In this document: positions 27,490 to 32,641 of the stretch, one piece after another
Position numbering within the stretch: the stretch's first letter is position 1
Layout of the letters: each line of letters opens with the position of its first letter
From: Adineta vaga
Taxonomy: Eukaryota; Animalia; Rotifera
Assembly: GCA_021613535.1 (NCBI GenBank)
Contig: CP075495.1
Coordinates: forward strand, 5,456,001 to 5,520,000
Reading direction: 5' to 3'
Length of the DNA stretch: 64,000 nucleotides
Notes under the pieces: model-generated
Told to the model about the DNA's origin: nothing
The model's database searches: none
The model's input: the letters and a program-made list of their open reading frames with translations, nothing else
Program-made: the position numbers and the translations under genes

Positions 27490-30400
27490 ATGACAGACAG
27501 TGTATCAACTAGTAGTAGCGTTTCGCAAAAACCAGCAATGAAAGATGAAGGTAAATTCGTCGAATTACCAGATGCTAAAGAAGGCGAAGTTGTTGTACGA
27601 TTTCCACCGGAAGCTAGCGGGTTTGTTGATTATAGAAGTTCTAATTCATTTACTTGAATATATACTTTTTATAATTTAGCTATTTGCATATTGGTCATGC
27701 TAAAGCTGCACTTCTCAATCAATATTATCAAAAAACTTTCAAAGGAATATTAATTATGCGTTTTGATGATACAAATCCAGCAAAAGAAAATGCTGAATTT
27801 GAAAAAGTAGTTTGATGAAATAATTCATGTGATATTCATCTGTTTTCTTTTCTCTAGGTTATTCTTGAAGATTTAAAAATGTTAGGTGTCACGTATGATC
27901 GTTTTACACATACTTCCGATCATTTTGATACTTTAATGAAATATTGTAAAGAAACAATTGAAAAAGGTATTGCTTATTGTGACGATACAGAGCCAGAAGA
28001 AATGAAAGCTCAACGTGATCAACGTCAAGATTCTGTAAATCGTAATAATAGTGTTGAAAAAAATTTGAAAATGTGGGATGATATGATTGCCGGAAATGAG
28101 AATGGTAAAAAATGTTGTGTTCGATTGAAAATCAATATGAAATCTAATAATGGATGTATGCGTGATCCAACTATTTATCGTTGTAAACCAGAGGAACATG
28201 TACGAACAGGCAATAAATATAAGTAAGACGGGAAAATAACTTCATTATGAATGGTATTTTTAATTATATTTTCTTCTCTTCAAAGAGTTTATCCAACATA
28301 TGATTTTGCTTGTCCAATTGTCGATAGTATCGAAGAAGGTTGGTAAACATTTTATCGTCATTCTGATAATATAATTCTACTTGTTTAGTTACTCATGCAC
28401 TTCGAACAACGGAATATCATGATCGTGATGAACAATACTATTGGATTCTCGATGCTCTTGGTAAATAATTCTAAAGATAAAATAAACCTTTTTTTACTGA
28501 CTTCAATAAATTTTCTATCCAGGTCTTCGCAAACCATTTATTTACGAATATGCACGTCTCAACATGCAATATACAGTATTGTCGAAACGTAAATTAACAT
28601 GGTTTGTTAACGAAAAAATTGTCGATGGTTGGGATGATCCACGTTTACCAACGGTACGTGGTATTCTTCGACGTGGTATGACTGTTGAAGGTCTTCGACA
28701 ATTTATCATTGCACAAGGTTCATCACGATCTGTTGTTTTAATGGATTGGGATAAGATTTGGGCTTTCAATAAAAAACAAATCGATCCAGTAGCACCACGT
28801 TTTACTGCATTATTAAAAGATCAACTAGTCAAATTACATTTGAAAAATGTTACAAAAGAAGAATGTAATCAACATCAAAAACATCCAAAAGATCCAAGTA
28901 TTGGTATGAAAAATGTCTATTCTGGTCCAGCAGTGTATATTGAGAACGACGATGCTGTACAAATTACGGATGGTCAAATTGTTACTTTAATGAATTGGGG
29001 AAATGTTAAGATCAATCGAGTGCAAAAGTAAGTTACGAGAAAACCAATGAATAGTTTCTGTATCATTATAATTAACTTCTTTTTATTTAGAGATACTACC
29101 GGTAAAATCGAATTGATCGAAGGTGAAACTCAATTTGATAATAAAGATTTCAAAAATACGCTGAAATTAACATGGCTTGCTGAAACAAGTCAAGCACCGT
29201 TAACACCAATAACTTGTATTCATTATGATAATATTATGACAAAAGCCAAACTTGACGAAGGTGATACATTCGAAAATTTTGTCAATTATGGATCAAAAGT
29301 AAGAAAAACTTCATTTCATTTTCGCATGGTAACTTTCCCCATTTTCAGACTGAGTATGATATTATGGGTGAACCTGATATGGCACAACTGAAAAAAGGAG
29401 ATATTATTCAAATTCTTCGCAAAGGTTACTATATATGTGACAGTCCATTTGATGGTGCCACTAAACAATCATGTCGTCTATTAAATATCCCAGATGGTGG
29501 TACTAAAGAAAAACCAACATCACTGAAATCGACCGATACTAATGTAACAGCAAATGCTTCGGGAGATAAATCAAAATCGTCAGCAGGAGCAACAGCGACT
29601 GTTAAATCAAGTCCTGAAGTAGATAAATTAGTTGAACAAATCGGTCAGCAAGGTGATAAAGTTCGAGATTTAAAAACAAATAAATCAACACCAAAGGTAA
29701 ACGAACATTCGATGAGGAATAAAATGAAATCGAATAACATTTCTTAATTAGGATGATGTCAATGCTGCGGTAAAAGAACTTTTAGCATTAAAAGAAAAAT
29801 ATAAAAGTTTAACTGGTACTGATTATAAACCAACAAATACAGCCGGTGCATCAGCAGCAGCATCTAGTTCAACACAAAAAGAAAATAAGAAACCAGCATC
29901 CGCTCCAGCCGCTACAACACCCTCAGCAACGTCTGCAGAAGCTGATAAACTTCTCGAAAAAATAACACAACAAGGCGATAAAGTGCGCGAACTTAAAGGC
30001 AATAAATCAGCTTCAAAAGTAAGTCTAACTACTGGAATCAGTAGTATCCGAGAAGTAGCGATCTCTAGCGACGATTTGAAAAAAAAGGGAACGGCGTAAA
30101 ACTTTCGCATAAGAGAAAGAAAAATAAAGATTGGTTCGCGTAAATATTATACACGTCACTGATCACAGCCTCATCTACATATCACGATTCACATATATAT
30201 CGAAAAGAAGGATGAGTTCAAATGAAAGTGTTGATATCGAAAATTTAAAATCTCGTGTAGATGAACAAGCTAATCTTGTTCGTAAATTAAAAAGTGTTCC
30301 TAATCATAATAAAGTATGCTGATGAAGTATTCGTTTTTCTAATTATTATCTTTTTCTTTTAAGGATGAAGTTACAGCGGCTGTACAAGAATTATTAAAAT

Positions 30401-32641
30401 TAAAAGAACAATATAAAACATTAACAGGTACGGATGTTCCAGCAACTGGAGCAGCTCCTGCACGTAAAGAGAAAGAAAAGAAACCAGCAGTCAAGCCAGC
30501 TGAAAGTGAACATGCTGCAGGATCTGGTCATACTGATTTAAAAAAACAAACCAAGTATGTTTTATAATAAATAATAATTAGAAAACCAAGAAAAATCAAA
30601 TGTTTTTCTAGACTTGGTATTGAATTTAAAAAAGAAGAAAATCTTGCTGATTGGTATGGACAAGTAAGTTTAAGATTATATAGGTACTCTCTTTATTCAT
30701 ATCTGCCTTGATCATTTAAGGTCGTTCGTAAAGGTGAATTAATTGAAAACTATGATGTATCTGGATGTTATATTCTTCGTCCATGGGCATATTTTCTTTG
30801 GGAACAATTAAAGGCTTTCATTGATGACGAAATATCTGCTATGGGCGTACAAAATTGTTATTTTCCATTGTTTGTTTCTCACAGTGCACTTCATCGTGAA
30901 CAAACTCACATTGCTGACTTTTCTCCGGAAGTAAGAATAGAATTAAATCAATAAAAAAAACATATGGAATTATCTAACTTAACTTTTCAGGTTGCTTGGG
31001 TAACTAAATCTGGTGATACTGATTTAGCTCAACCGATTGCAGTACGTCCAACAAGTGAAACCATTATGTATCCAGCATATGCCAAATGGATTCAATCACA
31101 TCGTGATCTTCCATTAAAATTGAATCAATGGAATAATGTTGTGGTATGTATGAAGATGATCAATTGAAAGATTTCTATTTCGAAAATTTTAGAGATGGGA
31201 ATTTAAAAATCCTCAACCATTTCTTCGTACCAGAGAATTTCTTTGGCAGGAAGGTCATACAGCATGGGCAACTCAAAAAGAAGCTTCCGAAGAAGTTTAT
31301 CAAATTCTTGATTTGTATGCAAGAGTTTATACAGATTTATTGGCTATACCAGTTATTAAAGGACGTAAAACAGAAAAAGAGAAATTTGCTGGTGCAGATT
31401 GGACAACAACAATTGAAGGTTATATCGCAGCTAGTGGAAGAGGCATTCAAGTTAGTAGATTTGAAAATAAAAACTTCGTGTCTTTTTCATATATAGAATA
31501 TTTTATTTTTAAGGCAGCAACATCTCATCATTTGGGTCAGAATTTCTCGAAAATGTTCGAAATTACATTTGAAGATCCACAAACACAAAGTAAACAATAT
31601 GTTTATCAAAATTCATGGGGTATAACTACACGAACCATTGGTGTTATGACCATGATTCATGGAGATAACAAAGGCTTAGTCTTACCACCACGTATCGCTA
31701 AATACCAGGTATATATAAAACGATGATATACGATAGGCAAATCATACGAAATATAGATCATATTCAGATTTTATAACTTATCTTTTTAATGTAACTAATA
31801 TATATATATATACATGATACTTTATATAGGTTGTTATTGTTCCATGTGGTATTACAGCATCATTGTCGAAAGAAGATGAAGATGCATTGATAAATACATG
31901 TAAAGATGTTGAAACGAAATTGAAAAAAGCCGGTATACGTGTCTATGGTGATTATCGAGATAATTATTCACCGGGATGGAAATTTAATCATTGGGAAATG
32001 AAAGGTACGATGATATTGATTTAGTTTTCAACGTATATCTCATCAATACAATTTTTTCTAGGTGTTCCAATCCGTGTTGAATTTGGTCCAAATGACAAAG
32101 CTCAATCACAATTGACTGTTGTATTTCGTCATACTGGAGATAAAACAAAAATTCCAGTTGACACTTGTGAAACTAAATTACGTGAAATGCTTGAACAAAT
32201 GCACAATGATCTATACAAGAAGTAAGAAACATAGATTAATTGGTGAGATACAATTTTTTTTTCTAAATTTCTTTTTGTTTTCTAGAGCTAAAACTGAACT
32301 TGATAGTCATACTGTAGTTGTTAAAGATTGGGCTGGTTTCTTAAAAGGTCTTGATAACTCTTGTATTATGTTAGCACCATTCTGTGGTGAACCATCATGT
32401 GAAGATCGAATTAAACAAGACAGTGCTCAGTATGAAAAGAAAATGAATATTTATTATTTATATTCTTCTCTTGTATCTCTTTAGGGATGCTGTCGTTGAA
32501 GAAGGTGCACCAGCAATGGGTGCTAAAGGTCTATGTATTCCATTTGATCAACCAGAACAGCTGGCGGAAAATCAACAATGTTGTCATCCATCATGTAAAA
32601 GCAAAGCAAAATACTTTACATTGTTTGGTCGAAGTTACTAA
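27490..32641 (+). CDS. EPRS1: Bifunctional glutamyl-prolyl-tRNA synthetase with two WHEP domains
   Basis: Glu[50 protein letters not shown]. WHEPs: QQGDKVR.LK..AVxELLxLKxxYK. Pro[42 protein letters not shown]-terminal LFGRSY. Confidence 0.97.
30211..30313 (+). CDS. Alternative first exon inside an EPRS intron (N-half of a WHEP domain) for a ProRS-only isoform
   Basis: [37 protein letters not shown] then gtatgc donor, phase 0; joins the exon at 30364 ([18 protein letters not shown]) to complete a WHEP domain. Confidence 0.75.

What the first reader, a model, noticed from the sequence alone, without database searches (positions are those of the whole stretch)
29751..30554. EPRS caught between fusion and fission: a split WHEP domain may allow EPRS, ProRS-only and GluRS-only products
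Seen: WHEP2 is split by an unusually long intron (30019-30363). Splicing it out gives fused EPRS. Inside it is a second, divergent WHEP N-half with its own ATG (30211) and a phase-0 donor to the same acceptor, giving WHEP-ProRS. Reading through the 30019 donor stays open for 26 codons to TAA (30097-30099), followed by AATAAA (30123-30128), giving a possible GluRS-only form. Known: Drosophila EPRS has an internal promoter for a ProRS-only mRNA, and C. elegans has fully separated genes. Inference: an intermediate in EPRS fission that uses a duplicated half-domain exon.
Basis: partly seen in the sequence, partly recalled or inferred. Interest (0 to 1): 0.75.

Follow-up and report, generated by a model that had tools for sequence, protein, structure and literature searches.

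The report
Rotifer EPRS hides a ProRS-only exon
In bdelloid rotifers the gene for the fused glutamate/proline tRNA-charging enzyme (EPRS) also yields a second, proline-half-only message from a short exon inside one long intron, likely started by its own promoter, and because this layout is shared across the group it is likely a stable two-product gene like the fruit fly's rather than a gene caught splitting in two.

Summary
The anatomy is real; the ATG is at 30212, not 30211. Transcript contigs show both joints: fused 30018>30364 in 5 of 8 runs laid and ProRS-only 30313>30364 in 4 of 8. The hidden 34-codon exon supplies a private first helix that completes WHEP2. It is present in six named Adineta and Rotaria species and in 5 of 5 metagenome loci that reach it. 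It is only 31-33% identical to the internal helices and forms its own clade, so it is old. Three non-coding blocks upstream of it are conserved, best read as an internal promoter. The GluRS-only product is unsupported: no contig shows it, tails of 1-91 codons occur at other introns, and the tail's length and frame differ between species. The AATAAA is conserved, however, so a minor form is not excluded. Drosophila already has a promoter-derived ProRS-only form. New here are the start inside a WHEP domain with a swapped helix, the lineage, and the missing GST domain. Verdict: a new variant of a known kind, not a fission intermediate.

The parts
27375..27405 (+). Two motifs upstream of the main ATG (27375-27384 and 27394-27405); the second fits the ATF4 CARE consensus on the minus strand; likely main-promoter elements
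   Evidence: Both are identical in the divergent locus L004; consensus TGATGxAAx from PMC5175342 passage; function inferred
27490..32641 (+). EPRS coding region, 19 exons, 1256 aa, GluRS-WHEP1-WHEP2-ProRS, no N-terminal GST-like domain
   Evidence: Open model; 87% identical to A. ricciae EPRS P0030; Pfam domains; four of its introns seen as RNA joints
29610..29841 (+). WHEP1, split by a 55-nt phase-0 intron (29697-29751) at the same position as WHEP2
   Evidence: Pfam PF00458 halves; phases; RNA joint in 4 of 4 runs
29752..30018 (+). Exon 9: second helix of WHEP1, linker, first helix of WHEP2 used in the fused protein
   Evidence: joined to 30364 in RNA contigs
30019..30363 (+). Long intron of the fused transcript (345 nt), holding the likely internal promoter and the alternative first exon
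   Evidence: Joint 30018>30364 in 5 of 8 runs laid; 320-331 nt in L003/L004, L005, L007
30019..30099 (+). 26-codon read-through to TAA; likely a by-product, not a selected tail
   Evidence: Length 9, 12, 20, 26 or 27 codons and three different frames over block 1 across species
30048..30067 (.). Conserved non-coding block 1, about 30 nt after the donor; role unexplained
   Evidence: A 12-mer shared by window, L003, L005, L007; poor acceptor score -5.3; no stable fold; no Rfam match
30122..30138 (.). Conserved block 2: AATAAA directly followed by GATTGG (an inverted CCAAT; label recalled); likely promoter element, poly(A) role not excluded
   Evidence: 12-mers shared by four sequences, partial in L009
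30151..30159 (.). Conserved block 3, ACACGTCA (CRE/bZIP-like; label recalled), just upstream of the RNA start
   Evidence: Present in the window and in 5 of 5 loci that reach it; CACGTCA occurs twice in the 64-kb window
30164..30313 (+). Alternative first exon of the ProRS-only mRNA: 5' UTR from 30164 or earlier, ATG 30212, 34 codons encoding a private WHEP first helix
   Evidence: Contigs start at 30164, 30164, 30171, 30174, 30202 with no loose end or upstream joint; 0 of 14 AGs give an in-frame cassette
30314..30363 (+). 50-nt phase-0 intron of the ProRS-only transcript, sharing the acceptor at 30363
   Evidence: Joint 30313>30364 in 4 of 8 runs, 3 studies; donor score 9.1
30364..30554 (+). 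Shared exon 10: second helix of WHEP2 and linker to ProRS
   Evidence: Pfam; RNA contigs
30212..32641 (+). Predicted WHEP-ProRS isoform, 598 aa
   Evidence: Open model, 82-89% identical to annotated bdelloid ProRS-only proteins of 596-615 aa

Best explanation
This bdelloid rotifer EPRS gene makes two spliced messages, a fused GluRS-WHEP-WHEP-ProRS one and a ProRS-only one whose first exon lies inside the 345-nt intron and is likely transcribed from an internal promoter. Shown: both splice joints, the shared acceptor, and conservation of the exon and of three upstream blocks across bdelloids. Both WHEP domains are cut by a phase-0 intron between their two helices, so a start inside that intron would leave half a domain. 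The hidden exon supplies a replacement first helix, predicted to pair with the shared second helix into a whole WHEP. Inferred: blocks 1-3 are the promoter; the fused form likely answers to amino-acid stress through ATF4-type sites, while the ProRS-only form, which lacks such a site, is likely controlled separately, so the animal could raise Pro-tRNA charging without raising GluRS. No GluRS-only product is needed to explain the sequence, and the layout is likely an old, stable state.
For: Fused joint in X1, X4, X5, X17, X20 (4 studies; 191 nt on the short side in X5) and ProRS-only joint in X1, X4, X17, X20 (3 studies). Both alleles of the hidden exon are transcribed. No upstream joint or loose end on the exon, and 0 of 14 AGs allow in-frame inclusion. 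The same N-terminus is on ProRS-only models of A. ricciae, A. steineri, R. socialis, R. magnacalcarata and R. sp. Silwood1 and Silwood2; R. sordida models contain its second half. The exon is in 5 of 5 metagenome loci that reach it, out of 9 fetched. The 14 hidden helices form one side of a 100/100 branch, 70% identical among themselves and 31-33% to the internal helices. The hybrid WHEP scores 53-63 bits in three relatives; the A. steineri form is predicted as two helices with pLDDT near or above 90 and ranks human EPRS WHEP first. Conserved blocks: shared 12-mers, against any shared 7-mer in 4 of 500 shuffles; no shared 7-mer in the other 13 intron positions compared, one of which has no intron in L003. 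CARE-type site conserved at the main start and absent from 4 of 4 internal regions.
Against: All runs are assembled contigs: they cannot give a start site, strand or level, and most are only guessed to be RNA. The ProRS-only joint has 27 nt on its short side, under the tool's 31-nt bridging mark, because the contigs end at the branch. X5 shows the fused form only; X6 gave one piece; X19 and X15 laid nothing, so no DNA control was obtained. No protein-level evidence. The relatives' proteins are BRAKER predictions. Transcription-factor labels for blocks 2 and 3 are recalled, and block 1 is unexplained. AATAAA is conserved, and GluRS-only models exist in three species. One of 10 pairs has pN/pS above 1, on few changes. 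The Foldseek match is weak (E 0.08), as usual for a helical hairpin.
Confidence: 0.85

Rival explanations
1. Three-product locus on the way to fission: the conserved AATAAA is an intronic poly(A) signal that yields a GluRS-only protein, and some species have already lost the fused form.
For: AATAAA is conserved in window, L003/L004, L005 and L007. GluRS-only models of 686-697 aa exist for A. steineri and R. socialis, and a partial one for R. sp. Silwood2. No fused A. steineri model appeared among the members listed (15 of 41 in that cluster). Humans make a truncated EPRS1(N1) by polyadenylation (PMC10618286 passage).
Against: Tails differ in length (9-27 codons) and read block 1 in three frames. 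Every such model begins its tail at an intact GT donor. The A. steineri and Silwood models were built with RNA from other species, and R. socialis has fused and split models side by side. AATAAA and long read-throughs are common at other introns. The conserved block runs on into GATTGG, and only 25% T follows it. The product would end in half a WHEP. Contigs join across 30019-30363 in five runs and none enters 30019-30163, which shows no presence but does not prove absence.
Confidence: 0.09
2. Operon-like processing: one pre-mRNA is cut at the AATAAA and the downstream part is capped by spliced-leader trans-splicing, giving GluRS and ProRS messages without a second promoter.
For: Bdelloids trans-splice a 23-nt leader onto more than half of their transcripts (PMC1925144 passage). 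AATAAA lies about 40 nt upstream of the RNA start.
Against: No loose 5' letters on any contig of the exon; two contigs begin at 30164 with genomic letters upstream of the nearest AG. The best acceptor before the ATG scores 0.5 in the window and at most 1.2 in four loci, against 8.2 before the main ATG.
Confidence: 0.03
3. The two joints come from different gene copies (alleles or ohnologues), each making one product.
For: Allelic differences are seen in the contigs. No genome was available to count copies, and the DNA run laid nothing.
Against: All contigs laid are 95-100% alike to this one locus, the window itself carries both donors, and two variants of the hidden exon are transcribed. Fused and ProRS-only models with neighbouring accessions exist in A. 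ricciae, R. socialis and R. magnacalcarata.
Confidence: 0.02
4. The hidden exon is an internal cassette or mutually exclusive exon of the full-length EPRS, not a first exon.
For: R. sordida gene models splice in its second half. In L005 and L007 an AG lies directly before the ATG.
Against: 0 of 14 AGs give an open in-frame inclusion in the window. No upstream joint in RNA. Met1 is invariant in 10 of 10 aligned rows.
Confidence: 0.01

Closest known systems
Drosophila GluProRS short isoform (alternative promoter; Cerini et al. 1997 as described in PMC4826098)
   Same: One EPRS gene gives a full-length and a C-terminal ProRS-only polypeptide by alternative promoter use (review passage). ProRS-only isoforms are also annotated in D. 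rhopaloa and the wasp Belonocnema.
   Different: The D. rhopaloa short form starts before the WHEP array and keeps all six repeats, with about 17 private residues. Here the start lies inside the last WHEP and a private helix replaces half the domain, leaving one hybrid WHEP. Drosophila EPRS has a GST-like domain; the bdelloid proteins tested do not.
Caenorhabditis / Rhabditina separated GluRS and ProRS genes
   Same: C. elegans ProRS has one N-terminal WHEP, the same layout as the short product here (PMC4072531 passage).
   Different: There the genes are unlinked and no fused protein is made. Here the fused transcript is present in 5 of 8 runs laid and no GluRS-only transcript was seen.
Human EPRS1(N1), truncated by coding-region polyadenylation
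   Different: No such product is shown here; the supported short product is the ProRS half.
WHEP-TRS domain (Pfam PF00458; PDB 1fyj)
   Same: Helix-turn-helix; profile match E 4e-10 to 1fyj.
   Different: Here one second helix is shared between two alternative first helices encoded by different exons.

Membership tests
Bifunctional EPRS (GluProRS) | GluRS and ProRS catalytic domains on one transcript and reading frame | tested here: met
   1256-aa open model; fused joint in RNA contigs; Pfam PF00749 and PF00587
Bifunctional EPRS (GluProRS) | WHEP repeats in the linker | tested here: met
   Two WHEP domains
Bifunctional EPRS (GluProRS) | N-terminal GST-like domain for the multi-synthetase complex (human and fly form) | tested here: not met
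   No GST hit in P0030 or P0038, present in Drosophila P0064; four RNA contigs begin 1-32 nt upstream of the ATG
Drosophila-type two-product EPRS gene | A ProRS-only mRNA from the same locus | tested here: met
   Joint 30313>30364 in 4 of 8 runs
Drosophila-type two-product EPRS gene | The short mRNA starts at an internal promoter | tested here: inconclusive
   Free 5' ends on contigs and conserved upstream blocks, but contigs cannot show a start site
Drosophila-type two-product EPRS gene | The short protein is made and charges tRNA-Pro | not testable with these tools
   Domains complete in relatives; no protein or activity data
Drosophila-type two-product EPRS gene | Common origin with the insect short isoform | tested here: inconclusive
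   Start points differ; a profile of the hidden exon found six bdelloid-type proteins and two unrelated WHEP hits among 8; convergence is likely but not shown
EPRS fission (Rhabditina type) | Fused product lost | tested here: not met
   Fused joint in 5 of 8 runs
EPRS fission (Rhabditina type) | Independent GluRS mRNA with its own 3' end | tested here: inconclusive
   None seen in contigs, which drop rare forms; tail not conserved
WHEP-TRS domain | About 50-aa helix-turn-helix above the Pfam cut-off | tested here: met
   Hybrid domain 52.7-62.7 bits against a cut-off of 32.5 in three relatives; model with helices 3-28 and 34-55. Tested on relatives, not on the window's own spliced protein

The most novel reading that the evidence does not exclude
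The bdelloid EPRS locus is a three-way switch: block 2 serves both as promoter element for the ProRS-only message and as poly(A) signal for a GluRS-only message, so one 350-nt intron holds everything two independent genes need, and Adineta steineri may already have lost the fused form. That would be a living route to EPRS fission.
Probability: 0.09. Interest if true: 0.68.

Novelty: new variant of a known kind. Interest (0 to 1): 0.42.

Why it matters
Why animals fuse GluRS and ProRS is open; one proposal is that fusion enforces co-expression (PMC10618286 passage). Here a second lineage besides insects keeps the fusion yet has long maintained a ProRS-only message, with different conserved upstream motifs from the main start. 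That gives a direct test of the co-expression idea: measure the two joints under amino-acid starvation, secretory load or desiccation. It also gives a natural helix-swap experiment on the WHEP domain, and explains why bdelloid annotations show fused, split and chimeric EPRS models.

Tried and rejected
No genome is held for the window, so copies could not be counted. GluRS-only RNA: no contig covered 30019-30163 in the five runs that cover both flanks, but contigs drop rare variants, so this is not evidence of absence; the same applies to the missing hidden exon in X5. Contig depths of the two joints were similar (29.5/30.1, 57.3/63.3, 22.3/26.9, 35.7/48.5, fused/short) but cannot rank levels and were not used. 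Block 1 as a 3' splice site for a GluRS-only last exon: an AG sits 50-53 nt after the donor in all four sequences, but it scores -5.2 to -6.4 (true acceptors -1.7 to 12.5), and the peptides after it run 1-24 codons; rejected. Block 1 as RNA structure: z-scores -0.01, -0.80, 0.93; no Rfam family. A protein-based metagenome scan found nothing among 588 candidate stretches; a DNA pattern scan then gave 9 loci, of which L001, L002, L006 and L008 start downstream of the intron and were left out, and L003 and L004 are near-identical and counted once in the motif tests. The 50%-representative search gave only generic ProRS relatives. A second place in the window with CACGTCA near a CCAAT (18255-18283) showed no clear link. 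A literature link between the short isoform and CrebA or salivary secretion was not found. The primary Drosophila paper is not held. Earlier scan findings: none returned.
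Full report
Setting. The window is AT-rich animal DNA with short introns. The gene at 27490-32641 builds into an open 19-exon, 1256-aa EPRS. It is 87% identical to Adineta ricciae EPRS and 82-83% to Rotaria proteins, so the source is an Adineta-like bdelloid rotifer. No whole genome is held.

Observation. The intron 30019-30363 is GT..AG and 345 nt, against a median of 58 nt. 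The hidden ATG is at 30212, one base from the position given, and opens 34 codons to a phase-0 donor at 30314. Both donors score high on a matrix from the gene's own introns (9.4 and 9.1). WHEP1 is cut at the same place by an ordinary 55-nt phase-0 intron. The TAA and AATAAA are where stated, but taken alone they are ordinary: 5 of 17 other introns read through for 15 codons or more, 5 of 17 contain AATAAA, and the window has 1.6 per kb.

RNA. Of 24 runs listed, 8 were laid; all are assembled contigs and most are only guessed to be RNA, though they skip GT..AG introns. The fused joint 30018>30364 appears in X1, X4, X5, X17 and X20 (4 studies); in X5 one 2082-nt contig crosses it with 191 nt on the short side. 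The joint 30313>30364 appears in X1, X4, X17 and X20 (3 studies), with 27 nt on the short side because both contigs end where the two paths merge. Contigs of the hidden exon begin at 30164 (two studies), 30171, 30174 and 30202, with no loose end and no upstream joint, and two sequence variants of the exon are transcribed. X5 shows only the fused form, X6 one upstream piece, and X19 and X15 nothing. None of 14 AGs between 30060 and 30313 gives an open in-frame inclusion, so in this species the exon can only serve as a first coding exon.

Conservation. ProRS-only models of 596-615 aa with the same N-terminus exist for A. ricciae, A. steineri, R. socialis, R. magnacalcarata and R. sp. Silwood1 and Silwood2. 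Fused models exist for A. ricciae, R. sordida, R. socialis and R. magnacalcarata, and a partial one for Silwood2; some R. sordida models splice in half of the hidden exon. These are BRAKER predictions (PMC7943196, methods passage). Independent genomic DNA came from a pattern scan: 9 loci, of which 5 reach the intron and all 5 carry the exon. They include a divergent lineage (L003/L004) that keeps the 5S rRNA and bHLH neighbours. The exon is 34 ungapped codons in five sequences, with pN/pS below 1 in 9 of 10 pairs. Across 37 half-domains the 14 hidden helices are 70% identical to each other, 31-33% to the internal first helices, and form one side of a 100/100 branch; the two internal helices are 58% identical (only 29 columns). 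The duplication therefore predates the sampled species. Spliced to the shared exon, the helix gives a full WHEP of 53-63 bits in three relatives. The A. steineri N-terminus is predicted as helices 3-28 and 34-55, with the splice junction at the start of the second helix. Human EPRS WHEP is the top sequence and fold match (the fold E-value is weak).

The intron's non-coding part. Three blocks are conserved: 30048-30067, 30122-30138 and 30151-30159. The first two share 12-mers among four sequences, whereas any shared 7-mer arose in 4 of 500 shuffles, and the other 13 intron positions compared share none (one has no intron in L003). Block 2 is AATAAA followed by an inverted CCAAT, block 3 a CRE-like octamer just upstream of the RNA start; those labels are recalled, not tested. 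The spacing between blocks 2 and 3 is 20, 23, 30, 30 and 31 nt. The main start has different conserved motifs, one matching the ATF4 CARE consensus that drives most cytoplasmic synthetase genes in mammals (PMC5175342 abstract start and passages); no such site lies in 4 of 4 internal regions. Separate control of the two messages is the natural inference. Block 1 is unexplained: it is not a good acceptor, a fold or an Rfam family.

The GluRS-only product. For it: AATAAA is conserved, GluRS-only models exist for A. steineri, R. socialis and Silwood2, and no fused A. steineri model was among the 15 of 41 cluster members listed. Against it: all those tails start at an intact donor and are 12 codons long; their last residues fit block 1 read in a different frame (inferred from the peptides). 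The window, L005 and L007 read the block in a second frame for 26, 27 and 20 codons, and L003 stops after 9, before the block. The constraint is thus on the DNA or RNA, not on a peptide. The A. steineri and Silwood models were built with RNA from other species, and R. socialis has fused and split models side by side. Contigs join across the intron and none enters its first 145 nt, which cannot exclude a minor form.

Mechanism. Shown: two spliced messages share the acceptor at 30363. Predicted: a 1256-aa EPRS with two WHEPs and a 598-aa ProRS with one hybrid WHEP. Inferred: transcription from an internal promoter near 30160, with the private helix kept because a start inside this intron would otherwise leave half a domain, and separate regulation that lets ProRS rise without GluRS. 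Confidence 0.85. Trans-splicing is common in bdelloids (PMC1925144 passage) but is not indicated at this exon.

Comparison. Drosophila GluProRS encodes a full-length and a C-terminal ProRS protein through alternative promoters (PMC4826098 passage; the primary paper is not held and was not read). Annotated insect short isoforms keep the whole WHEP array. Rhabditine nematodes have separate genes, C. elegans ProRS carrying one WHEP (PMC4072531 and PMC4394549 passages). Humans have a polyadenylation-truncated EPRS1(N1) (PMC10618286 passage). The locus works like the Drosophila gene; it fails the test for fission because the fused message is made. It also lacks the GST-like domain that ties human EPRS into the multi-synthetase complex.

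Novelty. No paper in the open library holds both 'rotifer' and 'glutamyl-prolyl', and none of the 20 papers listed for the bdelloid search contains 'bdelloid'; PMC4072531 does not mention rotifers. Subscription journals were not searched and no supplements were read. The isoforms already sit, unnamed, in public annotations. I rate it a new variant of a known kind, interest 0.42: real, conserved and testable, with a neat half-domain swap, but the principle is known from the fly and the three-product fission reading has about a 9% chance.

Noticed in passing
window 27490-27620: Bdelloid EPRS starts directly at the GluRS core with no GST-like domain, in the window and in the fused relatives examined; it may sit outside the multi-synthetase complex.
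   Followed up: partly
window 27457-27489; L004 943-973: A strong acceptor (score 8.2) ends 10 nt before the main ATG, with a counterpart in L004 (6.4). RNA contigs hold up to 32 nt before the ATG, which would fit 10 nt plus a 23-nt spliced leader or a small upstream exon. Not checked by laying reads.
   Followed up: partly
window 27375-27405; L004 878-908: Two motifs, one a CARE/ATF4-type site, are identical between the window and a lineage only about 79% identical in protein.
   Followed up: partly
window 30048-30067: Block 1 keeps a nearly fixed distance (29-31 nt) from the donor while the other spacings vary, which could point to a splicing role for the long intron; unexplained.
   Followed up: partly
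window 23882-24000 and 26416-26534: Two dispersed 5S rRNA genes (Rfam, 115.8 bits each); a 5S gene also lies upstream of EPRS in L004.
   Followed up: partly
window 27807-28522; L003 1106-1599: Four GluRS introns of the window are absent in the L003/L004 lineage.
   Followed up: no
window 29493-29621, 30192, 30222: Two haplotypes are transcribed, differing at six sites in exon 8 and by an insertion and one amino-acid change in the hidden exon.
   Followed up: no
window 18840-19850 and 25100-26050: Two similar small EF-hand genes of neuronal-calcium-sensor type (label recalled from ORF translations).
   Followed up: no
window 33840-34590 (minus strand): A bHLH-Orange gene of Hey/Hes type (label recalled) follows EPRS and is syntenic in L004.
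   Followed up: no
protein P0264: An unnamed 977-aa animal-type ProRS-only protein with several WHEP repeats; a further possible case of a short isoform or a split gene.
   Followed up: no
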